Positions 453 to 11,928 of a stretch of 64,000 nucleotides of DNA are shown one piece after another. Numbering within the stretch: position 1 is the first letter of the stretch; the number at the start of each line of letters is the position of its first letter. The notes beneath the pieces were generated by a model that had not been told where the DNA came from, did no database searches, and saw only the letters and a list, made by a program, of their open reading frames with translations. The translations under genes and the position numbers were made by a program. The DNA lies in the NCBI GenBank assembly GCA_025980325.1, contig JAICXQ010000005.1:8034-72033 (forward strand), given 5' to 3'. This DNA comes from Frankiales bacterium. Lineage in GTDB: Bacteria > Actinomycetota > Actinomycetes > JAFAQI01.

Positions 453-707
453 GGGAAACCTCACTGGACGGGACGGGGAAGGTTCCGGCAGCTCACGGCG
501 ATGCGAACCATCGAACTACCTCCGGGCGAAACAGGTATTGACGACGTTTCGGACCCTCCCACGCGCTCGCGGCCGTTGGCAACGGGGGTTTGACCGGCAG
601 GCACACGCGACGTCCACACCGCTGGGCGTTGCCGACTTGCGCCGGGTCGGTATTTGCGCGTATACCTACCGACACGTTTCTCACGTTTCGTCGGGAATGG
701 GTGCGCG

Positions 708-1343
708 ATGCTGGCGGTCGGGATCGTCGAAGGCGAGGTGCGCGAGCGCGTCCGCAGCGGCGCGCTGGATCCGGCCGTCGACGCGGTCGCGATCCGCCGC
801 ATCGTCGACGACGTCGTGGCGGACTACTCGCAGCGCCGGCTGACGACGTCGTTGCCGGATCTCGGGGACGCGGCGGCGACCGCGCGCGAGGTGTACGACG
901 CCGTCGCCGGCTTCGGCCCGTTGCAGCGCTACCTCGACGACCCGGGCGTCGAGGAGATCTGGATCAACGAACCCGGCCGGGTGTTCGTCGCGCGCCGGAC
1001 CGGGCCCGAGCTCACGACGACCGTCCTCGGCGACGGCGAGGTACGGGATCTCGTCGAGCGGATGTTGAAGACGTCGGGGCGCCGGCTCGACTTGAGCGCG
1101 CCGTTCGTCGACGCGTCGCTGCCCGACGGCTCGCGGCTGCACGTCGTCATTCCCGACGTGACGAGACGGCATTGGGCCGTGAACATCCGCAAGTTCGTGC
1201 TCTCGGCGTACTCGTTGGGCGAACTCGTCGCGCTCGGTTCGTTGCCGGAGTCGGCGGCGGCCTTTCTCGACGCGGCCGTCGTCGCCGGGCTGAACGTGCT
1301 CGTCGCCGGCGGTACGCAAGCGGGCAAGCCGGTCAATCGCTAA
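708..1343 (+). pseudogene. tadA: TadA/CpaF pilus ATPase, N-terminal fragment (interrupted by integrated element)
   Basis: GPLQRYLDDPGVEEIWINEP, VDASLPDGSRLHVV, NIRKF motifs; stops 4 codons after Walker A GGTQAGK (PVNR*). Confidence 0.93.
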
Positions 1344-1349
1344 TGCACC
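1305..1349. other. attL
   Basis: tadA sequence to GGCAAG, then element arm CCGGTCAATCGCTAATGCACC; arm 1338-1349 is a 10/12 inverted match to 11274-11285. Confidence 0.85.
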
Positions 1350-1424
1350 GTGTCGCGGGCCAGATCGGTTCCGTCCGTGAACTGCGCAGCCGCCCGCGCG
1401 TCGTAGAACAGGGGGCGGTGGCCA

Positions 1425-1444
1425 CGGCAGGCTACAGCCTGCCG
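1425..1444. promoter_or_regulatory. perfect 9-bp inverted repeat near element left end (operator or hairpin)
   Basis: CGGCAGGCT-AC-AGCCTGCCG. Confidence 0.4.
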
Positions 1445-1566
1445 CTGCTGCCGGTCGCCGACGCGGTAGAGGACTCCGCCGTCAAGCCGAGCAGAGGCGG
1501 ACGAGTCCGTCGAGCGCGCGGCGGCAGACGCGCGAAGTCTCGGCTTGACGGTGGAGGGGCCGCGGC

Positions 1567-1954
1567 GGCAGGCAGCCCCCGGTCAGCCGCGAGCGTTGCT
1601 AGGTCAACGGGGCCGCGTCTCGAGGAATCTCGACAACGCGGCGTGCGGGATGACCGAACCGTGCGGGCCACTGTCCGTCGTGCCGTCCTCGCACATAAGG
1701 GGATGCAGGTCGCGTTCGCCCATCCAGCCCTGCATGTCGCTAACCCGGTCTTGCGATCCGAGGATGACAAGTACCTGTGCGGCCGTGTAGCCGCGCGCGC
1801 AGGCAGGCCGGGGCAAGTCGGTTGCTCTCATGAACATGGGTCGCCTCCTTGTCGTACACGCGCGTTTGGCGTGGACGGGGCGCTAGCCCCCATTCGGGAG
1901 ATCCGGGCTGGTAGGCCGTGAGTGGGGACCGGGGTGGCAGGCAGCCCCCGGTCA
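1567..1954. repeat. 19-bp direct repeat flanking the xis-like gene
   Basis: GGCAGGCAGCCCCCGGTCA at 1567-1585 and 1936-1954. Confidence 0.8.
1604..1837 (-). CDS. excisionase-like small DNA-binding protein (candidate recombination directionality factor)
   Basis: AAGGAGG RBS 6 nt before ATG; YTAAQVLVILG...W...DL...VIPHAALSRFLE resembles Xis/MerR-like winged helix pattern; near attL. Confidence 0.6.
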   Translation of the reverse strand: MFMRATDLPRPACARGYTAAQVLVILGSQDRVSDMQGWMGERDLHPLMCEDGTTDSGPHGSVIPHAALSRFLETRPR

Positions 1955-2043
1955 ACCGGAAGCTCGTCGTCGTTCCTGTGTACCGGCGGGCTGGCGCGCC
2001 TCGGAGGCCTCAGTACGCGCTGAGAATCCGAAGGGCGCCAGCT

Positions 2044-2649
2044 CTAGGCGGTCTTCACGGCTGAAGGGGACGGCTGGGGTGTGGATCGGGGTCCGGCGCA
2101 TCCGTTGTCGCCTTCGACCTTGCTGATGCCGGTGTCGAGCGTGACGTACCAACGGGCCGGGTAGACCCGGTCGTGCCCGTCGCTTGTCCTGACGTGGAAG
2201 ACGATTTGGGCTTCGTGGCATCCGGGTTGATTGACGTTCACGGGGACCACGATGCTCAGTTGGTTATCGAGCTTCTGGATAGGAACGCTGTCGAGCGCGG
2301 CACGGCGGGAGCCGGCGAGAACCACGGGGTCGAGAGCGTACGTAAGTTGCGCGCCGTTGTAGTACAGGGAACCTCCATAAACCAGGAGGTACGCATTCGG
2401 AGGATCGAATGGCGCGCTGCCGAGCGCCACCCGCAACTCAATTGATCGGATGCGAACCCGCTGAGTGAATGTTGGGACTCCGACGACGAGGTACATCGGT
2501 TTGTGGAAATGCCAGAAAGACTGGCCGATGGCATTGGGCCTGTAATCATCCATCTTTGGGAGCGGGCTGGCAGCGCAACCGAACACGGCTAACTGGGCGG
2601 CCGTCGCGAGGACGACGGCCGCCCGAAGCCGCAAACTCTTTAGTCGCAT
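2044..2649 (-). CDS. putative lipoprotein
   Basis: MRLKSLRLRAAVVLATAAQLAVFG-C lipobox; start overlaps the stop of the upstream ORF by 10 nt. Confidence 0.7.
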   Translation of the reverse strand: MRLKSLRLRAAVVLATAAQLAVFGCAASPLPKMDDYRPNAIGQSFWHFHKPMYLVVGVPTFTQRVRIRSIELRVALGSAPFDPPNAYLLVYGGSLYYNGAQLTYALDPVVLAGSRRAALDSVPIQKLDNQLSIVVPVNVNQPGCHEAQIVFHVRTSDGHDRVYPARWYVTLDTGISKVEGDNGCAGPRSTPQPSPSAVKTA

Positions 2650-4139
2650 GCGCCGTGTGGCTCGAACTTCGAGCACGGCTGAGGCGCAGCGGGAACTGGT
2701 GGCGGAGTCTTGTAGATCGCGGTGTAGTAGTCGGTTCCGCAGGCCATCTGATACTGGCAGCCGGTCTCCGCCGCATCGTCCACGGCCCAGTAGAAGCACA
2801 AGGGTGCGTTCACCGGCCCACAATCATCGGCGGAGTAGATCGTCGTCTTGTTCTCGTCAGTAGCCGTGCTCTGTGACTCGACCGAGAAGTCGAGGCCGAG
2901 AGGTCCCGACCCGATTGAGGCACCGTACCCGTTCTGGTACGTCTGGCTCTGTCCGGCCGTGATCGCCCTCCACTGGTCTTGCTGCAGCGGGAAGACGAGG
3001 CTCGCGCTTTGCTCCTCCATCCCTTCCAGTGTGTCGTTATTCGTCGGGAAGTCCGGCGTCGAGGTCGTCCCACGCGGGTTCCATTCATGCGGCTGCCACA
3101 ACTCGTGTGTTTCGGTTGAATGGTCTCCGTTATTGCAATGGAACGTAATCGTCTGGTGCTGCCACGTCGCCGGGACAACGAGTGCGCGCGCGCCCTGACC
3201 CGCGACGGAGACCCCGCCGCTTTGGTTAGCGTAGGTCGCTTGATCGCCGGTCGCGAGCGTGAAATTCACACTTCCGGCAGTGGTGTACTTCGTCTGCGTT
3301 AGTCCATGGAGGTCGATTCCTAGCACGACGGATGACTGGGTCACCCGCGACCAGGTAGTTTCGAGAGACTCACCCATCGCGCGGTAGGGCGTATTGCGAA
3401 CATCGGCCTGGTACGAATTCCCGGAATAGGAACCCGCGCCGTAGACCACCCCGACATTCACGGTGCCGTCGACCGACGTCAGACCGCTCGTTGTGATCGT
3501 GAACGCCGGCGGGGTCGGGGGATGTGCCGTGTCAGGGTTATATCCGCATGGCCCCGTGGGCGCAGGATCGCCGACTGGGGGTAGCTGGCCGATGTTGGTC
3601 ACCGGCGGAACCTGAACAAAGAGATTTGGCGAAATCGCGGCGTTAGCGACCGGCTGCTGGGCGGTGATGTTGAAGAACTCGATACCGGTGAACGGAGCGC
3701 CGGTTACATCGTTACCCGTGGAGACCGCGAAGTAGTTGCCGTCGGGGTCGGGGATCGCGCTTGGCTGCGGCAGCGGCACCGTGACGGTTCCCGTTGATGA
3801 GAACGCTGGGACGGGGAGGATTGGCTGCTGCACGCCTTCGGGCTGGTCAGCGCGATAAACCTCGAACTGCGCGTACGCGAGTGGGTGGCCCGCATTGTCG
3901 AGCGCTGTAAGCACCACGCCCGCTGTGATGGGACTGCTCACGGTGGGTGCGGCTGGGCCTGCTGGGATCGTCGGTATACCGATCGGACCGGATATGGCGG
4001 CGACTGCGAACCCCGCGAGGGCGAGGTAGCTCTTTGGAGGCCTTCCTCCGAGCGCGGCGGTGATTGGGTCGACGGCAGCGAACCGTCGAGCAATTCTGAT
4101 CATCTGAGGTGGCTCCGATACAGGCTGGGCAGGAGGCAT
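2640..4139 (-). CDS. secreted beta-rich protein of unknown function (499 aa)
   Basis: long ORF with hydrophobic N-terminal segment, Thr/Ser/Gly-rich body and Cys-rich C-terminus. Confidence 0.75.
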   Translation of the reverse strand: MPPAQPVSEPPQMIRIARRFAAVDPITAALGGRPPKSYLALAGFAVAAISGPIGIPTIPAGPAAPTVSSPITAGVVLTALDNAGHPLAYAQFEVYRADQPEGVQQPILPVPAFSSTGTVTVPLPQPSAIPDPDGNYFAVSTGNDVTGAPFTGIEFFNITAQQPVANAAISPNLFVQVPPVTNIGQLPPVGDPAPTGPCGYNPDTAHPPTPPAFTITTSGLTSVDGTVNVGVVYGAGSYSGNSYQADVRNTPYRAMGESLETTWSRVTQSSVVLGIDLHGLTQTKYTTAGSVNFTLATGDQATYANQSGGVSVAGQGARALVVPATWQHQTITFHCNNGDHSTETHELWQPHEWNPRGTTSTPDFPTNNDTLEGMEEQSASLVFPLQQDQWRAITAGQSQTYQNGYGASIGSGPLGLDFSVESQSTATDENKTTIYSADDCGPVNAPLCFYWAVDDAAETGCQYQMACGTDYYTAIYKTPPPVPAAPQPCSKFEPHGACD

Positions 4140-4199
4140 GAGGCCCCCTGCAATCTTCAGTACGAACGAATAGCGCTGGCATTACCGACATTGGCTAGA

Positions 4200-4907
4200 T
4201 CAAGGCTCGGGCCGAGGCGGGTCGCGGCCGGGAGGTTCGGTGTCGCCGTGGTGACGTTCGGTGTCGCCGTTGTGCGTTGCTGCCGACGATGGGTGCACGA
4301 CGTGATGTCGGAACATGCCGCGCACCGCAGTCCCGAAGTGGTCGATGGTTCTTGCGATGTCCCGGAGGTCGGGCGGTCGCGGGTCGATGAGGTGCGCGGC
4401 GAGGTCCGCAGTGTCGGCGATGAGGCGCGCGAGCACCTGTTCTAGTGGCTGGTCGTCGCGGGGTGCGATGTGCCTGTCTGTGACCCGTGGGTCCTCTCGT
4501 CCGGCGCCTTCGGCCGGGGGCCGCCCCGGTTGACCGCGGTCGCCGTCGTCCCCGAGGGGGCTAGGGTCGCCGACTTGCGCCGTCACGCTGCCGCGCGCCG
4601 GACGAGAGGAAAACTCGGGCCATCCCAGCCCGTTCAACGCGGCTTCAGACCCAACTGCGCTGAGCGTGTCTAGCTCGACTGCTAGCGCGGTCAGTAGGAC
4701 GCCGACGCGAGTCGGGAAGTCATCGCGGACTCGACCGTCGATGACTTGGGCGCCGATCTGCGCCAGATTGGCGAGCCGTTGCCAGAACTTCGGGCTCGGC
4801 GGGGTGCGCTTGGCGTCTAGGGCGTGCCCGACAATCGTGTCGTCGTGGAGCCAGGCGGGAGGCCCTGACCATCTCGATAGGCGCAGGGGAATCACGCTGG
4901 CGGTCAT
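4200..4907 (-). CDS. hypothetical protein
   Basis: 235-aa ORF co-oriented with neighbours; no recognised motif. Confidence 0.45.
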   Translation of the reverse strand: MTASVIPLRLSRWSGPPAWLHDDTIVGHALDAKRTPPSPKFWQRLANLAQIGAQVIDGRVRDDFPTRVGVLLTALAVELDTLSAVGSEAALNGLGWPEFSSRPARGSVTAQVGDPSPLGDDGDRGQPGRPPAEGAGREDPRVTDRHIAPRDDQPLEQVLARLIADTADLAAHLIDPRPPDLRDIARTIDHFGTAVRGMFRHHVVHPSSAATHNGDTERHHGDTEPPGRDPPRPEP

Positions 4908-5003
4908 TCGCGAGCCTCCTTCCGGCTGAATCAGGCATAGGGGTACCTACGCGCGGCGCGCATGTGCGCCGCGCGTTGGTTGGGCGTTCTTAGTTAGTGG
5001 CGG

Positions 5004-5462
5004 CTACGTGCCGAAGCCCGCGCTGTTCTGTTGCGGCGTCCACTCCGTTTCTTCGCTGGCGACGGCCACGAGTTCGGGGGTGGCGCTGGTCTGAACGCCG
5101 GTCGTGTCGATGGGCGGGATGTGGCCAAAGAACAGCGTCGCCGTGAAGCAACCGTCCTCGATGCCGTTGGTCGAGACATCCGGTGAAATACACGTGTCGA
5201 AGGTCGGCCCAAAGCCCGTCTGCTGGTAGTGGATCTGTGTGCCATCCCCACGCGTCCCGTCGACCTCGAACACCCATTCACCCGTGCTATCGGCGATTCC
5301 ACCCGCGCAGACATGGAACGTTGTCGTCGTGGGATAGGTGACTCCGACGGACGCGTGCGCGGTGGGCAATGGGTCGGCAACGGCGCTCGGAATGCCGGTG
5401 GCGCAGGTTCCCGCGGCCAGCAAGGTGCTGGCCGCGATCGCGCGAACTCGACGGTCGTTCAT
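5004..5462 (-). CDS. secreted protein coupled to ECF sigma factor
   Basis: signal peptide MNDRRVRAIAASTLLAAG...AVA; ATGA overlap with sigma stop codon. Confidence 0.75.
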   Translation of the reverse strand: MNDRRVRAIAASTLLAAGTCATGIPSAVADPLPTAHASVGVTYPTTTTFHVCAGGIADSTGEWVFEVDGTRGDGTQIHYQQTGFGPTFDTCISPDVSTNGIEDGCFTATLFFGHIPPIDTTGVQTSATPELVAVASEETEWTPQQNSAGFGT

Positions 5463-6589
5463 AACGGCTCTCCCTTGGGAATCGGGCTCGGGGGTGGCCC
5501 GATTCGCCATTGTGGGTCGCCGGTACGTTTACAGCCAACCGCGGGATTATCCGGGACTTGCTCACAAACCGGCGTTAGGTTTTCGTTGACGCCGTAACCG
5601 CACTCTCCCGTTGCCTTTACGTAGATCCGGTCTCCGCCGGTTTGGTTGTCGTCAGAACAGGCCGAGCCGAAGCAGACGCCCGGAGTGCACGCACTCGGCA
5701 GCTGCGGAACGAGCGTCGGCTCGGCCGTCTTGACGTTTGCACGACCGCGACGGGCCGGCCCGACGCGGGGGGGTGCGTCGGGACGGCCCGTCGCGGTCGT
5801 GGTGGCTGGCGTCGCCGGTTGGCGGGCGACGGCGAGCAGCGTGTGCGTCGCGGTCCCGGATGCCGGCGACGCCGGGAGCGTCAGCGGAGTGGGGACCGCG
5901 GGGAAGGTGAACACCACGAGAACCGAGACGCCGGTGAGGCTCGTCACCATGGGCCGTGCATGTCGTCCGACGGAGCGCCGGACGCTGCGAGCGGCATGCG
6001 CGAATGTACTAACGGGGACGACCGTCGCGACGATCGGGCCGAACCGGTTGCGCGCGAATGCGCGCGCCCGTGTCAGTCGAACGCCGACGGTGTTCGTCGT
6101 GATCCCGAGCCTTTCGGCGATCTGTTCGCGGCTCAGCCCGAGATAGTCGTAGAGGAAGACGGCGGCGAGCTTTTCGGGCATCTTCTCCATGACGCGGACC
6201 ACGTCGGCGTCGACGGCCCATTCGTCTTCGGGATAGACCTCGTCGGTCTGTCGGTCCGACCTGATCGTGGCGAGGTCCGAGTGCGGTTCCTCGCGTGAGT
6301 GAAAGCCCCGACGCAGCAGGTCGGCAAGACGGTTTGTCCCGACCTCTTTGCACCACGCCACCACGAGCCTGGGCTCGGAGGTGTCGATCTGGGTGTGCTT
6401 GTCGTGGAGTTTCAGCCACGCGTCATGGAGAAGGTCTTCGGCGATGTGCGCGCCCATGCCGCCGAGCCGGGCTGTCGCTAGCTGTGTGAAGAACGCCAGA
6501 AGCTCGTCCCGATGCCGGCCGTAGAACTCGTCCGGGTCGAACCCGCGCGGCGGGTCGGCGTCGGTGCCAGGCAACAGTGCCCCCTTCAT
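5459..6589 (-). CDS. ECF sigma factor with C-terminal TM segment and Cys-rich extension
   Basis: region 2 (AEDLLHDAWLKL...AW), region 4 (SREQIAERLGITTNTVGVRLTRAR), hydrophobic segment, Pro/Thr linker, six Cys. Confidence 0.85.
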   Translation of the reverse strand: MKGALLPGTDADPPRGFDPDEFYGRHRDELLAFFTQLATARLGGMGAHIAEDLLHDAWLKLHDKHTQIDTSEPRLVVAWCKEVGTNRLADLLRRGFHSREEPHSDLATIRSDRQTDEVYPEDEWAVDADVVRVMEKMPEKLAAVFLYDYLGLSREQIAERLGITTNTVGVRLTRARAFARNRFGPIVATVVPVSTFAHAARSVRRSVGRHARPMVTSLTGVSVLVVFTFPAVPTPLTLPASPASGTATHTLLAVARQPATPATTTATGRPDAPPRVGPARRGRANVKTAEPTLVPQLPSACTPGVCFGSACSDDNQTGGDRIYVKATGECGYGVNENLTPVCEQVPDNPAVGCKRTGDPQWRIGPPPSPIPKGEPL

Positions 6590-6917
6590 GCTGCCGCCCG
6601 GTTCTGGGTGGTGCCGCGCGTCGCTCGTCGGGTAGTGGGTTTGCTTCTCCTACCTACATAAACGTCGCGAGACCCCCGATTCGTTACAAAACACATTGCG
6701 GCCAACGTGTATGAGGCGCACAAAGGCAGCACTCAACGCGGTCGGGCGCTCGCCGGCTGTCCTCGACGAGCGACGCTGGCGCGCCCCAACATCTAGTTCA
6801 CGGACGAACCGGCCTGTTGTTACATCCCAATTTGCCATCAGGCTCGTTCGGCCAGCCTGCCTAGTCTCTATACGGACGGATAGGCGGTTTGCTTACACGA
6901 CAGTCCAGCATTGTTTT

Positions 6918-7184
6918 TCACGTGTCGCGGACGGGCCGCCCCTCTTGGTCTATGCGTGGCATGAGGGAGCCCGGTTGAAGGCGCAGGACGTGAGCAAGGC
7001 GCGCAATCTGCACGACTCCGGGGTTGGTCAGGCCGCGTTCGATGTTGCTGACGTGGCGGGGGCTCACGTCGGCGGCGAAGGCAAGTTCTTCCTGGGACAG
7101 CCTTGCGCGCAGCCGCGCGGAGCGGAGCTTGTCACCGAGCGCGGCCTGGAACTCTAGATCGGGTTCCTTTGCGATGCGCGGCAC
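6918..7184 (-). CDS. XRE-family HTH transcriptional regulator
   Basis: LGDKLRSARLRARLSQEELAFAADVSPRHVSNIERGLTNPG; GTG start chosen. Confidence 0.88.
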   Translation of the reverse strand: MPRIAKEPDLEFQAALGDKLRSARLRARLSQEELAFAADVSPRHVSNIERGLTNPGVVQIARLAHVLRLQPGSLMPRIDQEGRPVRDT

Positions 7185-7892
7185 CCGGCCAGCGAATGAC
7201 AACCATGCAATCAAATGCCATGAAAAAGAATGTGAGTCTCGCCGTCTCGCGTGGGGATGACGGTTTCTCGCCGCGTGGCGAACACCCGCCATCGGCCGGC
7301 GCTGGCGATTGCGCTCGGCTACCGTCTGCGGCGGTTGGAGCGAGACTTTGGGGGACCCCTGGATGCGACTGCTGACGCACGCGATCTGCGCAACCTGTCT
7401 TGACGCCCGCCTACCGGGCCCGGGTCGCCCCGACGCTTGACATGTCGCGCGAGAACAGCTGCTGCCTCTGTGGCGGCCAGGCGGGGGCGATCTACGTGCG
7501 CGAGTCGTCGGCGTTACCGACGCTGCCCTGGGTCTGCGACCGCCAGCACGGTTAGAACAGCGGGCACGCTAGCGCAGGCGTTGTCGCGTCGCAGCTTTCG
7601 CCGCAGGTGGTGCGGCCCGTCGCGCAACGCCTACGCGGCGGGTCTTGCACGCTCAGGGTAAGCCGAGTTGGCCGGGGGACGGTAGCAATCCATTTCATGG
7701 GTGCAAGGGTGTGCGAGCCGTAGGCGAGGTTCGTTCGTGGCAGCGGACGCTGGCACGAACGAACAGGTCAGGGGAATGTGGGCCGTACGGCCAGGGGTGA
7801 CCAGAAGGTCTGCCGAGGGGAAGGGCCGTACGGTCCTCGGTTGGGGTCCGGCGGCGCGTAGGCGCGGACCGGCTCGGCGGGAAGGCCGGAGA

Positions 7893-7940
7893 GTGTCCCC
7901 GCCAGTGTCCCCCGCGAACGTCCCCGCGAACGTCCCCGCG
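7893..7940. repeat. 12-bp tandem array (GTCCCCGCGAAC-like, about 4 units)
   Basis: TGTCCCCGCCAG TGTCCCCCGCGAAC GTCCCCGCGAAC GTCCCCGCG. Confidence 0.8.
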
Positions 7941-8018
7941 CGTGAGGCGGGTCGTCCGTTAGGCCGGTTCTGGTCCGTTCCCGCGCGGGGGACGACGAAC
8001 CGTGCGCATGGTGAAGGC

Positions 8019-8270
8019 ATGTCCGCCTGTGACGGATGCCTCGGGCGCGGCGAGTGCTGGGTGTGCCTGGGGACCGGCGTGCTCCAAGGCGGGGACGGAT
8101 TCCGGCCCTGCCATCGCTGCTACGGGTCGGGGCGCTGCTGGCTGTGCCAGCAGATCGTGCTCGCGGACATTGAGGACCCGCCGCTGTTCAGCCTCGGCTC
8201 GTGGAGCATCGGACGCCGCAGACGGCCAGGCAGCGATAGCGGGCAAGACCCGCAGCGACGACGGGCGTAG
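8019..8270 (+). CDS. small DnaJ-type zinc-finger protein
   Basis: CDGCLGRGECWVCLGTG and CHRCYGSGRCWLC (CxxCxGxG repeats). Confidence 0.75.
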   Translation: MSACDGCLGRGECWVCLGTGVLQGGDGFRPCHRCYGSGRCWLCQQIVLADIEDPPLFSLGSWSIGRRRRPGSDSGQDPQRRRA

Positions 8271-8799
8271 CCGGACGGCTCGCCACTCGCGGCCGCGTCG
8301 GCTCCTGTCTCGGTGAGACAAGTGTGTGTGGCCCTAGTTGATCTTGGTTGGACCGCTGCCGCGCCCACGTCCCGCGTCCCGTCGTCGCCCGTACCAAGCC
8401 CTGCCCCCGCCTACGCCCCGAACAGCGTCCATCGCTCCATGTGCGGCCTAGCTGGCGCGCCGGGTGACCTGCCCCCTCGGCGCGGCCCGCGCGCCGGGGC
8501 GGCGGGCGGGGGACGCCGCGCGCCCGTAGCCAGCAGACGAGCAGCAGCCAACCGTCAGCGACCCCATGCCAGCCCGCAAGCAAGAGCGCAGACCGAGCCG
8601 ACCCGACATTCCCCTGAGCAAGATCAAAAAGACAAGATCAAACGAATAGTGGATGGCACACAGTTGCATCGCCCGGCAGGCTGGCCCGGCCACGCGCCCG
8701 GCGCGGCCCGTCTCGCGAGCGGCGATTCCGGCCTATTCCTTAGCTGTCGAGTGCTTCTCGCTGCCGCTTTTAGGAGTCAGGGGCTACTCGGTGTTTCAC

Positions 8800-8860
8800 G
8801 CGGGGGAACGGTCGGGGGAATGTCGGCGGGGACGCTGGCGGGGACGTTCGCGGGGACGGT
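8800..8860. repeat. inverted copy of the 12-bp array (GCGGGGACGTTC-like, about 5 units)
   Basis: GGCGGGGACGCTGGCGGGGACGTTCGCGGGGAC is the reverse complement type of 7893-7940. Confidence 0.75.
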
Positions 8861-9343
8861 ACGGGCCGACGCTTCGGCCCCTGAACGGCGAAGGAAGGGG
8901 AGCAGGTGGCAGTGGTCGTGACACCCATCCGCCCGGTCGGCGGACGGTGCCTGCGGCTGCTCCCCGGCGTCGACGCGGCGCAGCGGTCCCCGGCGCGTGC
9001 CGCGTCACGATGGCGCAGAGTGCGTGTGCGCGTGTCCGTGGGCCGGGTGCGCTGGTCGGTGCTCGACGTGGCGTGCGGTGGGGGACACCTTCACATCCGC
9101 TTGTTCGGCGCGCGGCGTTCGGTCCGACTGTGCCGAGGTCGGCGCGGTTCGCGGTCACCTGCTATTGACCCATCGCAGCCGCCGCCTCTGCCGTTGGCCC
9201 TAGGGCCGGAGCGTCGGCATAGCCGGATCGCGTCATCGCGGTTGGTGTTCACCCCTTTCTTCTCTATCAGTCGGGGATCGGAGACGGCCCCTCGGAGGCC
9301 CGCTGACGTGCGGGTTTACCGGCGCGCGGGGGGCCGCGTGTGA

Positions 9344-9420
9344 ACGGCCCACGAGACGGCCTACGAGACGGCCCACGAGACGGCCCACGAGACGGCCCCG
9401 GGGATCTACGAGACGGCCCC
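9344..9420. repeat. 12-bp tandem repeat ACGAGACGGCCC (4 tandem + 1)
   Basis: direct reading; one unit ends CCT; fifth copy after a 9-nt gap. Confidence 0.9.
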
Positions 9421-9677
9421 CCGAGGACCGCGCCGATCCGCAGACGGGCAGTTCGCAACGGTGCGGGCGGCGCGTGTCCCAATCCGTGCGCAGACCGCGA
9501 TTGGTCGGTTAGTAGGCGACAACCAATCGAGTTCCGAAGCGGAGACCAACGTCGATGACAGGCAGCGCAGCGCGTACGGCACAGGCGACAGCGGTCGCCG
9601 CGTGCCCGAGCGATGTGCGCGAGCGGTCGGACCGCGCCGGCCGGACCGGCCGAGGCGACCGGACGCGGCGTAACGGG

Positions 9678-9863
9678 GTGGCGCGAAGCGGGGTACCGGA
9701 CGCGCTGGTGCGCGCATGGGTGGAGGCGTCGTGCCGGGAGCAGGGTGTCGCGGCGGTGATCGCGGACCCCGAGACGATCGCCGCGGTCGTGGCTGTGCTC
9801 ACCGGCCGACCGCCCGGGGGCGCGAACGCGGGACGGCGGCGGCGAGCGGGTCGCGCTGCGTGA
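9678..9863 (+). CDS. small protein convergent with recombinase
   Basis: GTG start; LVRAWVEASCREQGVAAVIADPETIAAVVAVL helical pattern; stop 2 nt from recombinase stop. Confidence 0.5.
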   Translation: MARSGVPDALVRAWVEASCREQGVAAVIADPETIAAVVAVLTGRPPGGANAGRRRRAGRAA

Positions 9864-9865
9864 GG

Positions 9866-11269
9866 TCAGACTCGCCAGATCGCGCGGACGCGGCCGGGGT
9901 CGAGGCGGGGGCTGGGACCCTTCGCCTTGTCGATGACTACGTGGTCGACGACGGTGCGAATGATCGCGGATTGCTGCGAGACGTTGAGGTCATCCCATTC
10001 GGCGCGCAGTCGTTCCCCGGTGCCGACCAGGCCGATCAGCGCGTCGTCGCGGGACAGCCGGGCGATCGCGCGCTCAGTGTCTTTGAGCCGGTCGGCCACA
10101 ACCTGCTTGGCGGTCAGCCATTCGCCCATGCTGATCCGCTTGTCCGCCCACGCGCGGGCTAGTTCCTCAAGCTGCTCGGTGTCCTCGCGGACCTGTGCGG
10201 TCAACCGCTGATAGTCGCTGTCCGCGCCGTGACGCCCAGCCAACGCCTCGGCCATTGCGGGGCTGTCCAGGCGCATCAGAACAGCCTCGGCGATGAAGGC
10301 TTCCAAGCTCGGAGCGGTCACGTACACCTTGCCGCAGCCGCCGAAGTCCGGGCCGGATCGGCACCCGTAGCGGCGGCGGTCCCGGTTCGGGGCAGACACC
10401 ATCTTGCCGCCGCACAGCGCGCACCGGACGAGCCCGGACAGGGAGTAACGGCGCGCAGTCCGCAGCGTGCGCCGGGCCGGGTTCGTCAGCAGCGCCACGA
10501 CGCGCTCGTGCTGCTCAACCGTGATGATCGCGGGCCACGCCGCAGGGCCGACAACCTCGCCGCGATGCTGGCGCAGACCTGCGATGCGTGGAGACATGAG
10601 CAGATTTCGCAACGTCGGGCTGCGCCACACGTTCTTGCCGGTCGAGGTCGTCACACCCTTCTCGCCCAACCAGCCGACGAGCGAGGTAACCGATTCGCCG
10701 GCGAGCAGCCGGGCGACCGCCGCGCGGATCACAGCCGCTTCGTCCTCGCGGATGGTCAGCCCGTCGCGCTCGTAGCCAAACGGGCGTTCGCCTTGGCCGT
10801 GTGGGAGCCCCTTCGCGGCTCGCTCGTCGCTTGCGCGGCGTACGCGTCGGCTTGTCGCGTCGCTGGCGTTGGCCGCGATCGCGGAGAACACCCGCGCGAC
10901 CATGATTCCGTCCGAATTCCCGAGGTCGGTGACCCCGCAGACCGTGGTGAACCGGCGCATCCCGACCCGCTCGCACGCCGCCAGGAATTCCTCGAATTCG
11001 CGCGGGTTCCGGCTGAGCCGGTCCTGGTGGTAGGTGACAAGCGCGTCGAACCGGCGGTCCTCCAGGTCGGCCAGCATCGCCGCGTATTGGGGACGCTCGC
11101 GCCCGCTCCACGCCGAGCGGTCGTTATCGACGTACTCATCGACCACGACCCACCCGCGCTGCTCAACCAAGCGTCGGCAGTCGGCGAGTTGGCGATCCAC
11201 GCCCGCCCGCGTGCCTTCGCGGTCGTCACTAATACGCGCGTAAATCGCAGCCCGAATCATCGTGGTCAT
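9866..11269 (-). CDS. large serine recombinase (integrase)
   Basis: catalytic YARIS; RPQY; DRLSRN; recombinase domain; zinc ribbon LSGLVRCALCGGKM...YGC; coiled coil; intact. Confidence 0.96.
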   Translation of the reverse strand: MTTMIRAAIYARISDDREGTRAGVDRQLADCRRLVEQRGWVVVDEYVDNDRSAWSGRERPQYAAMLADLEDRRFDALVTYHQDRLSRNPREFEEFLAACERVGMRRFTTVCGVTDLGNSDGIMVARVFSAIAANASDATSRRVRRASDERAAKGLPHGQGERPFGYERDGLTIREDEAAVIRAAVARLLAGESVTSLVGWLGEKGVTTSTGKNVWRSPTLRNLLMSPRIAGLRQHRGEVVGPAAWPAIITVEQHERVVALLTNPARRTLRTARRYSLSGLVRCALCGGKMVSAPNRDRRRYGCRSGPDFGGCGKVYVTAPSLEAFIAEAVLMRLDSPAMAEALAGRHGADSDYQRLTAQVREDTEQLEELARAWADKRISMGEWLTAKQVVADRLKDTERAIARLSRDDALIGLVGTGERLRAEWDDLNVSQQSAIIRTVVDHVVIDKAKGPSPRLDPGRVRAIWRV

Positions 11270-11273
11270 AATA

Positions 11274-11320
11274 GGTAGATTAGCGTATAGCAGGCAAGAC
11301 GACGTTGCTCAACTGTTTGG
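11274..11320. other. attR
   Basis: element arm GGTAGATTAGCGTATAGCAGGC-AA-G followed by tadA codons ACG ACG TTG CTC AAC TGT (TTLLNC). Confidence 0.85.
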
Positions 11321-11928
11321 CCGCCGCAGTTCCGGCCCGCGAGCGGGTGGTGACGTGCGAGGAGGTGTTCGAGCTCCGGCTGTCGCTGCCGGACGTCGTC
11401 GCGATGCAGACGCGGCCGCCGAACCTCGAAGGCACCGGCGAGATTCCGTTGCGGCGCTTGGTCAAGGAGTCGCTGCGGATGCGACCCGATCGGCTGATCG
11501 TCGGCGAGGTGCGGCAGGAGGAATGCCTCGACCTGCTGGTCGCGCTGAACTCCGGCGTCCCGGGCATGTGCTCGTTGCACGCGAACTCCGCGCGCGAGGC
11601 GATCACGAAGATGTGCACGCTGCCGCTGCTCGCCGGCGAGAACGTGACGCATGCGTTCGTCGTCCCGACCGTCGCGAACAGCGTCGACATCGTCGTCCAC
11701 ATCGGGCGCGACGGCAGCGGTCGGCGGGTGGTGCGCGAGATCGTCGGCGTTCCCGGCCGGGTCGAAGGCGACGTCATCGAGGTGGCGGATCTGTTCGTCA
11801 CCCGCGGCGGCCGGCTGATCCGCGCGGACGGCTGGCCGCCGCATCCCGAGCGGTTCGTCGCCGCCGGCATCGATCTCGCCCGGCTGCTGTTCCCGCTCCC
11901 TGACGTCGACGGCGGGCTGGACCCGTGA
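11299..11928 (+). pseudogene. tadA: TadA/CpaF ATPase, C-terminal fragment
   Basis: TTLLNCL, TCEEVFEL, LRMRPDRLIVGEVR (Walker B), SLHANS (His box). Confidence 0.93.

What the first reader, a model, noticed from the sequence alone, without database searches (positions are those of the whole stretch)
11267..11298. Excision assembles the integrase promoter across attP
Seen: the reconstructed attP is GGTAGATTAGCG-TATAGCAGGC-AA-GCCGGTCAAT-CGCTAATGCACC, with 10/12 inverted arms exactly 10 nt each side of a central AA, as expected for a serine-integrase crossover dinucleotide. On the minus strand of the circle it reads TTGACC (from 1331-1336), 18 nt, TAATCT (11277-11282), then 7 nt to the integrase ATG, i.e. 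a housekeeping-type promoter for a leaderless mRNA. In the integrated state the -35 position is tadA coding sequence (AACGTC). The -10 lies inside the att arm. Inference: integrase is induced by excision and repressed by its own binding, which gives a feedback loop favouring re-integration.
Basis: partly seen in the sequence, partly recalled or inferred. Interest (0 to 1): 0.8.

Follow-up and report, generated by a model that had tools for sequence, protein, structure and literature searches.

The report
Integrase promoter split by its attachment site
A 10-kb mobile element sits inside a pilus ATPase gene, and its integrase gene starts so close to the recombination site that its promoter lies inside that site. 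One half of the promoter (-10) always stays with the gene, and the other half (-35) joins it only when the element is a free circle, a design already known from Tn4451 and some ICEs.

Summary
Deleting 1329-11298 restores a 434-aa TadA/CpaF ORF. The rejoined attP has 10/12 (15/22) inverted arms around AA. On the integrase strand it reads TTGACC-N18-TAATCT-N7-ATG; the integrated junction has AACGTC at the -35 position.

Strong: the -10 and leaderless start. About 17 integrase relatives keep TANNNT 6-9 nt before the start codon. The MAG itself has about 390 genes with this geometry.

Moderate: the -35. In 8 reconstructed attP sites the far (P') arm always gives a better -35 than the host flank. 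Six carry TTG at 17-18 nt, against 2.3% of native promoters. The three closest carry TTGAC(C/G).

Weakening:
- Native leaderless promoters in this genome show no -35 signal, so the integrated -10-only promoter already looks normal. Any effect is probably quantitative, not on/off.
- A second, state-independent promoter-like site (TTGCCT-N18-TATTAT-N7-ATG at Met4) exists in this window only.

Untested: autorepression and the re-integration loop.

The mechanism class is known (Tn4451 TnpX, ICEclc, ICEKp1), so this is a new member of a known kind.

The parts
654..1328 (+). 5' fragment of tadA/cpaF (T2SSE ATPase), ending in the Walker A codons GGC AAG
   Evidence: Pfam T2SSE. Joining it to 11299.. 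restores a 434-aa ORF. Intact orthologues at 91-93% identity exist in same-genus genomes.
1323..1328 (.). Overlap GGCAAG at attL; the inferred crossover dinucleotide AA is at 1326-1327
   Evidence: Longest shared string at the two junctions; dyad centre of attP.
1328..1349 (-). P' (far) half-site of attP, GCCGGTCAAT CGCTAATGCACC. Its reverse complement carries the -35-like TTGACC (1336-1331).
   Evidence: GTCAA is conserved in the far arms of L045, L043 and L015 but is absent from 13 of 14 near arms.
11274..11295 (-). P (near) half-site of attP/attR. It contains the -10 TAATCT (11282-11277).
   Evidence: GCTAAT(C/G)T is conserved in the near arms of relatives, always 6-9 nt before the integrase start.
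11296..11297 (.). Central AA (TT on the integrase strand) at attR, the inferred crossover. It lies inside the promoter spacer.
11301..11306 (-). Host tadA codons at the -35 position in the integrated state (AACGTC, 0/6 to TTGACA)
11268..11297 (-). Rival promoter-like site present in both states: TTGCCT (11297-11292), N18, TATTAT (11273-11268), then 7 nt to ATG Met4 (11260-11258)
   Evidence: Consensus scan, 9/12 matches. Not conserved: the 93% relative L012 has Pro at this codon.
9866..11269 (-). Large serine integrase, 467 aa. The start ATG at 11269-11267 is the predicted +1 of a leaderless mRNA.
   Evidence: Pfam Resolvase + Recombinase + Zn_ribbon_recom. Relatives at 93%, 79% and 70% identity. 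Against the 93% relative, 138 synonymous versus 34 non-synonymous codon differences.
11299..11928 (+). 3' fragment of tadA/cpaF, starting ACG ACG TTG (TTLLNCL...)
9555..9863 (+). Small ORF convergent with the integrase 3' end. It is conserved next to the integrase in this element family and is a candidate directionality factor.
   Evidence: tblastn hits in L014, L015, L035, L039, L042, L045 and L053. No Pfam family.
1329..11298 (.). Integrated element, about 10 kb. Genes run mostly on the minus strand: ECF-like sigma 5459-6589, HTH 6918-7292, unknown secreted proteins. The stretch 7300-9860 is decayed.

Best explanation
The integrase gene starts 26 nt from the crossover point, so its promoter must lie inside the attachment site.

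It is transcribed as a leaderless mRNA that begins at the A of the ATG at 11269. The -10 (TAATCT) sits in the near (P) arm and stays with the gene in every state. The far (P') arm carries TTGACC. It reaches the -35 position, 18 nt upstream, only when the two element ends are joined as attP. That happens in an excised circle or in a copy newly transferred into a cell. The crossover dinucleotide lies in the promoter spacer.

AttP is therefore expected to carry a stronger promoter than attR. The integrase would be made best when integration is the useful reaction, and integration would remove the -35.

Because this host's own leaderless promoters work without a -35, the integrated gene probably keeps a basal -10-only activity. 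That activity could supply integrase for excision. The switch is a change of strength, not on/off.

An integrase dimer bound to attP, or a subunit on the P arm of attR, would cover both hexamers, so autorepression is likely.

Status of each step:
- Shown: the anatomy, its conservation, and the native leaderless geometry.
- Inferred: promoter activity, the contribution of the -35, and autorepression.
For: 1. Anatomy as described.

2. Leaderless start and -10.
- In about 17 distinct integrase relatives (25-93% identity) a TANNNT lies 6-9 nt before the start codon, with no room for a Shine-Dalgarno sequence.
- In this MAG, TANNNT followed by ATG/GTG of a long high-GC3 ORF is counted 155, 184 and 50 times at 6, 7 and 8 nt. 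At other distances the count is about 10-30.
- The integrase uses the modal distance of 7 nt.

3. The -35.
- All 8 reconstructed attP sites score better against TTGACA than their integrated junctions: 5, 5, 5, 4, 3, 3, 3, 3 against 2, 2, 3, 2, 2, 1, 1, 1.
- Six carry TTG at a spacing of 17-18 nt, against 9/388 (2.3%) of native leaderless promoters. The binomial P is 1e-8 for 6 of 9, and 1e-5 if reduced to 4 of 7 lineages.

4. Conserved asymmetry between the arms.
- Far arms of the close clade all have GTCAA, while their outer motif is never TANNNT (TAATGC, CAATAC, CAATAC, CAATCC).
- Near arms all have TAAT(C/G)T, and only 1 of 14 has CAA at the -35 position.
- Both arms bind the same protein, so the difference points to an added constraint on each.

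5. The design survives a flip of the central dinucleotide and of insertion orientation (L015 in comM).

6. Precedent. [quoted passage not shown] ICEclc and ICEKp1 use a far-end promoter for int only when excised, which favours integration (PMC13023037).
Against: - Native leaderless promoters of this genome carry no -35 information, and none of 388 has TTGAC. A -35 is not needed here and its effect is unknown.
- TTGAC lies in a protein-binding half-site, so its conservation could serve integrase binding. The far arms of the window and L015 are 17/22 identical overall, so TTGAC is not conserved beyond the rest of the arm.
- More distant relatives lack it: L042 TAGGCG, L035 CTGGCG, L021 none.
- By E. 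coli criteria the attP promoter scores only 8/12. A state-independent site in this window scores 9/12.
- There is no transcript, excision or binding evidence.
- Part of the element is decayed, so it may no longer move.
Confidence: 0.55

Rival explanations
1. The promoter is the same in both states. The integrase is transcribed from a -10-only leaderless promoter (TAATCT), as most genes of this host are. The TTGAC in the far arm is part of the integrase recognition sequence and adds nothing to transcription.
For: The position weight matrix of 338 native leaderless promoters shows no -35 signal, and 0/388 have TTGAC. The half-sites are protein-binding DNA. Relatives at 62% identity or less lack TTGAC.
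Against: TTG at the -35 position is about 30 times more frequent in reconstructed attP sites than in native promoters. The motif is specific to the far arm although both arms bind the same protein.
Confidence: 0.3
2. There is promoter switching within the site. When integrated, the window's integrase is made from TTGCCT-N18-TATTAT, which starts at the second ATG (Met4, 11260) and gives MIRAAIY.... Its -35 is built from the shared core and so is present in both states. The TTGACC/TAATCT promoter adds the Met1 form only from attP.
For: The consensus scan finds this site at 9/12. TATTAT is a TANNNT 7 nt before an in-frame ATG, which is the native geometry. Several homologues begin MIRAA....
Against: It is not conserved. 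L012 (93% identity) has Pro at this codon, and L014, L015 and L034 have no TANNNT there. The two promoters overlap, so they cannot be occupied together.
Confidence: 0.2
3. In the circle the integrase is expressed mainly by read-through from the element's own genes. Most of these point the same way and would run across attP into int, so the attP hexamers would be incidental.
For: The likely genes from 1604 to 7292 and int are all on the minus strand. No terminator-like site lies between 1200 and 2300. ICEclc and ICEKp1 use a far-end promoter in this way.
Against: There is no Shine-Dalgarno sequence before the ATG (CTACCTATT), so a leadered transcript would be poorly translated. The conserved TANNNT-N6-9-start geometry argues for initiation at the start codon.
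Confidence: 0.15
4. The element is a decaying relic. The integrase is no longer expressed in any regulated way, and the hexamers are leftovers or chance.
For: The stretch 7300-9860 holds only gene fragments, and no relaxase or Rep gene was found, unlike in relatives.
Against: The integrase is under strong purifying selection: 92.7% aa identity with 4-fold-site identity of only 0.556, and 138 synonymous versus 34 non-synonymous codon differences. The near arm differs at 3 of 29 positions from the 93% relative. Both tadA halves are intact.
Confidence: 0.05

Closest known systems
Tn4451/Tn4453 and the large resolvase TnpX (Clostridium)
   Same: The recombinase is a large serine recombinase and its gene abuts one end of the element. 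Joining the ends in the circular form creates the promoter for that recombinase. This is stated in the title of Lyras & Rood 2000, as cited in PMC13023037. The detail that the -35 and -10 come from opposite ends is from my own recollection of that paper.
   Different: Here the hexamers lie inside the two half-sites of a site-specific attP. The mRNA is leaderless. The host is a high-GC actinobacterium whose own promoters lack a -35. The target is a defined codon stretch, not loosely specific sites. Nothing has been shown experimentally.
ICEclc Pcirc and ICEKp1 P3'end (state-dependent int promoters)
   Same: The integrase gene sits at one end, and the promoter used after excision comes from the other end across attP. 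The effect described is a bias toward integration (PMC13023037).
   Different: Those elements use tyrosine integrases at tRNA genes. A complete promoter sits at the far end with a long leader, and a host tRNA promoter is used when integrated. Here only the -35 would come from the far end, and the window's orientation has no co-directional host promoter.
Junction promoters of IS circles (IS911, IS30, IS2 and others) and the phage P2 split-operon model
   Same: A promoter is formed, or joined to the recombinase gene, only in the circular or free form and is broken by insertion (my own knowledge, not checked here).
   Different: Different recombinase classes. In IS elements the -35 and -10 lie in the terminal inverted repeats of a transposon.
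Tn3/gamma-delta resolvase autoregulation at res
   Same: A serine recombinase binds a recombination site that overlaps its own promoter (my own knowledge).
   Different: That is a small resolvase at a three-subsite res on a replicon. Here binding is only inferred from the geometry.
Gene-interrupting serine-integrase elements (skin/SpoIVCA in sigK, SPbeta/SprA in spsM, phiRv1 in REP13E12)
   Same: A large serine integrase sits at the element end, insertion is inside a coding sequence, and precise excision restores the gene (my own knowledge). More distant members of this integrase clade sit in HNH/13E12-like genes, as phiRv1 does.
   Different: The target here is the P-loop codons of tadA/cpaF, and of comM and other ATPases in relatives. 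No developmental or excision evidence exists.

Membership tests
Large serine integrase (LSI) | N-terminal resolvase catalytic domain, recombinase domain and zinc-ribbon domain in one protein of about 450-600 aa | tested here: met
   Pfam PF00239 (5.9e-23), PF07508 (2.2e-12) and PF13408 (1e-10) in a 467-aa protein. The catalytic-serine context YARIS is at residues 10-14.
Large serine integrase (LSI) | attP of about 50 bp with imperfect inverted half-sites around a non-palindromic 2-nt crossover, and little identity to attB beyond it | tested here: met
   15/22 symmetry around AA. The overlap with attB is only GGCAAG. In relatives the overlap shrinks to 3-8 nt and always contains AA/TT.
Large serine integrase (LSI) | Catalyses attP x attB recombination; excision needs a directionality factor | not testable with these tools
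   Only indirect evidence: empty attB in same-genus genomes, and a conserved small ORF next to int as a candidate factor.
Circle-junction promoter for the element's recombinase (Tn4451 TnpX type) | -35 at one element end and -10 at the other, placed at promoter spacing only when the ends are joined | tested here: met
   TTGACC (1336-1331) and TAATCT (11282-11277) are 18 nt apart in attP. The integrated junction has AACGTC. The same holds in L012+L045 and L015.
Circle-junction promoter for the element's recombinase (Tn4451 TnpX type) | The circular form exists in cells | tested here: inconclusive
   No attP or attB junction in the other 128 contigs of the MAG. The attP pattern is absent from viral contigs.
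Circle-junction promoter for the element's recombinase (Tn4451 TnpX type) | Higher promoter activity from the joined ends than from the integrated end | not testable with these tools
   Needs reporter fusions or transcription start mapping.
Actinobacterial leaderless-mRNA promoter | TANNNT hexamer ending 6-8 nt before an ATG/GTG that is both +1 and the start codon, with no Shine-Dalgarno sequence | tested here: met
   TAATCT, 7 nt, ATG. The genome-wide peak of this geometry is at 6-7 nt. It is conserved in about 17 integrase relatives.
Actinobacterial leaderless-mRNA promoter | Mapped 5' end at the start codon | not testable with these tools
   The genome is a 68%-complete MAG. No RNA data could be reached.
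Integrative mobilizable or conjugative element of actinomycetes (AICE/IME) | Carries replication and/or transfer functions (Rep, relaxase, FtsK-like Tra) | tested here: not met
   Relatives carry TrwC (L015) or REP_ORF2-G2P (L035, L039, L041, L042). tblastn with these proteins finds nothing in the window's element, and 7300-9860 is decayed.

The most novel reading that the evidence does not exclude
In a whole clade of actinobacterial serine integrases the two attP half-sites may have co-evolved to act also as the -35 and -10 of the integrase's own leaderless promoter, with the crossover dinucleotide in the spacer. Recombination itself would then rewire transcription: the promoter is strong and self-repressed on the free circle and weak after insertion. 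Together with insertion into the Walker A codons of tadA, this could make a self-limiting, possibly reversible DNA switch for Tad pilus assembly.
Probability: 0.3. Interest if true: 0.65.

Novelty: new member of a known kind. Interest (0 to 1): 0.45.

Why it matters
If the attP promoter is real, it is a very compact example of recombination-coupled gene control. About 50 bp of DNA would serve as recombination site, promoter and operator, and the enzyme's own reaction would switch its gene down.

This would interest people who use serine integrases as genetic tools, because attP and attR would then have built-in, state-dependent promoter activity in actinomycetes. It would also interest those studying how integrated elements avoid loss after excision.

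The comparative result is useful for annotation: in this clade the integrase start, the -10 and the att arm lie at fixed distances from each other.

It does not open a new principle. The idea has been established since Tn4451, ICEclc and IS junction promoters.

Tried and rejected
- Integrase relatives and the exact attP string in viral contigs: nothing found.
- Phage database: only hits at 35% identity or less, so no free phage with this attP.
- attP or attB junctions in the other contigs of the MAG: none.
- L002 (Nocardioides, 48% identity): both ends were found, but the overlap is ambiguous (TT or AAGTT, the latter giving a frameshift in the HNH gene). No -35 appears at 17-18 nt. It was left out of the tally.
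- L021 (45% identity, comM Walker B): 8-bp overlap, different geometry, no -35-like hexamer.
- Paralogous integrase on contig C76 of the same MAG: it has TAGGGT-N7-GTG but unrelated arms, and its far end was not traced.
- Pfam on the 77-aa ORF 1604-1837, proposed elsewhere as an excisionase: no family. Its homologues in L045 and L015 are internal, not at the element end.
- Long vertical co-inheritance of the element with the host was considered, because synonymous divergence of int and the tad genes is similar. It was not adopted: two same-genus genomes have empty sites, and the cargo differs from the 93% relative.
- Literature searches for serine-integrase leaderless promoters in attP, or for tadA as an integration target, returned nothing relevant.

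Full report
**What is there**

The window carries a roughly 10-kb insertion (1329-11298) inside a tadA/cpaF-type ATPase gene.
- The left junction reads ...GGT ACG CAA GCG GGC AAG|CCGGTCAATCGCTAATGCACC.
- The right junction reads GGTAGATTAGCGTATAGCAGGCAAG|ACG ACG TTG CTC AAC.
- Joining 654..1328 to 11299.. gives an open 434-aa ORF with an intact Walker A motif, GGTQAGKTTLLN. The N-terminal part hits Pfam T2SSE.
- The only sequence shared by the junctions is GGCAAG.
- The gene next to the right junction (9866-11269, minus strand) is a 467-aa large serine integrase with Resolvase, Recombinase and Zn_ribbon_recom domains.
- Two genomes of the same genus have an uninterrupted tadA with GGC AAG ACN at this place, that is, empty attB sites.

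Every sequence statement is correct.
- The rejoined attP is GGTAGATTAGCG TATAGCAGGC AA GCCGGTCAAT CGCTAATGCACC. The outer 12-mers match 10/12 and the 22-nt half-sites 15/22.
- On the integrase strand it reads TTGACC (1336-1331), 18 nt, TAATCT (11282-11277), 7 nt, ATG (11269).
- The integrated junction has AACGTC at the -35 position.
- Such a pattern is rare here. The whole 2.7-Mb MAG has 5 TTGACN-N18-TANNNT sites on both strands.
- AA as the crossover is supported by the dyad symmetry. It is also supported by relatives, whose junction overlaps (GGCAAG, CTTG, GAGGTT, GGGGTTGC, AAG) share only AA/TT at a fixed distance from the conserved arm motif.

**The -10 and the leaderless start: strong support**

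I collected integrase relatives from genomes and metagenomes.
- In about 17 distinct relatives, from 93% down to about 30% identity, a TANNNT hexamer lies 6-9 nt before the start codon, and no Shine-Dalgarno sequence fits in between. Examples: TAATCT-7-ATG (L012, L034, L001), TAATGT-7 (L014, L041), TAATCT-6 (L015, L018), TAGTGT-6 (G227, G313), TAATAT-7 (G029), TAAAGT-7-GTG (L035).
- Members at 58% identity or more share (C/T)GCTAAT(C/G)T in the near arm.
- The host uses this design widely. In the MAG, TANNNT followed by the ATG/GTG of a long high-GC3 ORF occurs 155, 184 and 50 times at distances of 6, 7 and 8 nt, against about 10-30 at other distances. That is some 390 candidate leaderless genes in a 68%-complete genome.
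- The integrase uses the modal distance.
- The N-terminal length M-x-x-x-IRAAIY is kept in the 93% and 79% relatives, which supports Met1 as the start.

**The -35: moderate support**

Both ends were recovered for eight elements.
- Window: TTGACC at a spacing of 18.
- L012+L045: TTGACG at 18. These are the two halves of a 93%-related element in the same tadA site. They lie on two contigs of one metagenome, and assigning them to one element is an inference.
- L015 (70% identity, inserted in the Walker A codons of comM): TTGACG at 18.
- L018: TTGTGA at 17.
- G227: TTGTGG at 17.
- G029: TTGCGC at 18.
- L042: TAGGCG.
- L035: CTGGCG.
- L021, which has a different geometry, has nothing. A further far arm without its integrase end (L043) also has TTGACG.

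In every one of the eight, attP scores better against TTGACA than the integrated junction does. TTG at 17-18 nt occurs in 6 of 9 attP sites, against 9/388 (2.3%) native leaderless promoters and 2.3% of all TANNNT in the genome. The binomial P is about 1e-8, or about 1e-5 if the close clade is counted once.

The two arms differ in a consistent way.
- Far arms of the close clade always carry GTCAA, and their outer motif is never a TANNNT (TAATGC, CAATAC, CAATAC, CAATCC).
- Near arms always carry TAAT(C/G)T and almost never CAA at the mirror position.
- The same protein binds both arms, so this asymmetry suggests a second constraint on each arm, as promoter hexamers would impose.
- The design also survives a flip of the central dinucleotide relative to the arms in L015. 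That flip inverts the insertion orientation in the same GGC-AA-GAC target.

1. A position matrix of 338 native leaderless promoters shows no information anywhere upstream of the -10, and none of 388 has TTGAC. This host normally fires from -10-only promoters. The promoter left at attR is therefore ordinary rather than broken, and the gain from a -35 is unknown.
2. The consensus scan finds a second site in the integrated sequence: TTGCCT (crossover TT plus near arm, so present in both states), N18, TATTAT, then 7 nt to the in-frame ATG of Met4. It scores 9/12, against 8/12 for the attP promoter by E. coli rules. It is specific to this window: the 93% relative has Pro at that codon.
3. TTGAC lies in protein-binding DNA and is not more conserved than the rest of the arm (17/22 between the window and L015).
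4. There is no evidence on transcripts, excision or binding.

**State of the element**

- The integrase is under strong purifying selection against the 93% relative: 138 synonymous versus 34 non-synonymous codon differences, and 4-fold-site identity of 0.556, similar to the 0.57-0.74 of the flanking tad genes.
- The near arm differs at only 3 of 29 positions.
- The interior is mosaic. Against L045 the HTH protein is 87% identical and the sigma-like protein 45%.
- The stretch 7300-9860 holds only fragments of a protein that is intact in L014. No relaxase or Rep gene is present, although relatives carry TrwC or REP_ORF2-G2P.
- The element may still excise and reinsert but probably cannot transfer by itself.

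**Most likely mechanism**

The integrase is made from a leaderless mRNA whose -10 lies in the P arm (about 85% likely). The P' arm adds a -35 only in attP and raises transcription on the free circle or on entry into a new cell (about 55-60%). Integration removes the -35 and leaves basal expression. Integrase bound to attP or to the P arm of attR covers the hexamers and represses (about 50%, by geometry only).

**Comparison with known systems**

The principle is established.
- ICEclc and ICEKp1 drive int from a far-end promoter only when excised, which biases them toward integration.
- From my own knowledge: IS junction promoters, the P2 split-operon model, and Tn3 resolvase autoregulation at res.
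- Particular here: both hexamers lie inside the half-sites of a site-specific attP, the mRNA is leaderless, the design is conserved across the clade, and the target is P-loop codons.

**Verdict**

This is a new member of a known kind.

Noticed in passing
window 654-1328 and 11299-11928; loci L014, L039-L045, L052 (G029), L053 (G227): tadA/cpaF is a recurrent insertion target in Actinomycetota. Of 111 top database hits to the N-terminal fragment, 54 end shortly after the Walker A motif, with three tail classes: GKP.., GKTTL(V/D).. and ..CEEVFEL... Split genes on single contigs were seen in G029 (8.6-kb insert), G227 (4 kb), G042 (35 kb, another site) and G179.
   Followed up: partly
L015 9964-9990 and 21296-21330; L034 1-62; L020 about 760-815: The same integrase clade targets the P-loop codons GGC AAG AC(N) of other ATPase genes: comM/Mg-chelatase, a GKTSVL protein and a GKTAF protein. 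More distant members sit in HNH/13E12-like genes (L001, L002, L006, L017, L018) or at the comM Walker B motif (L021, L028).
   Followed up: partly
L014 9480-9531; L015 9964-10003; L052 867-960: Read toward the integrase, the central dinucleotide is AA in these elements and TT in the window, on otherwise similar arms. The element is accordingly inserted in the opposite orientation, so the host gene fragment reads straight into int and stops at the TAA inside the -10.
   Followed up: partly
window 9555-9863 (+): A small ORF convergent with the integrase 3' end has homologues directly beside the integrase in L014, L015, L035, L039, L042, L045 and in the 4-kb G227 element. It is a candidate recombination directionality factor. 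No Pfam family.
   Followed up: partly
L003 9990-10020; L022 about 135-165: Two independent integrase homologues have no ATG, GTG or TTG in frame after an upstream stop. ACG sits 6 nt after TAATGT, where the start codon is expected. This could be a non-canonical leaderless start or a recoding event.
   Followed up: no
whole MAG (G000): About 390 candidate leaderless genes (TANNNT-N6-8-ATG/GTG) occur in a 68%-complete genome, with no detectable -35 or extended -10 signal. The middle of the native -10 is G/C-rich.
   Followed up: yes
window 7300-9860: No convincing gene. The stretch holds only two fragments (7627-7767, 8891-9136) of a 343-aa protein that is intact in L014. This part of the element is decayed.
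   Followed up: partly
G000 contig C76 9546-10931 (L010): A second large serine integrase lies in the same MAG (43% identity), also with TAGGGT 7 nt before a GTG start. Its arms are unrelated and its element was not traced.
   Followed up: no
window 1604-1837 (-): The 77-aa ORF at the far end has homologues in L045 and L015 (43-46% identity), but there they are internal genes. In the circle this ORF would read toward attP and int.
   Followed up: partly
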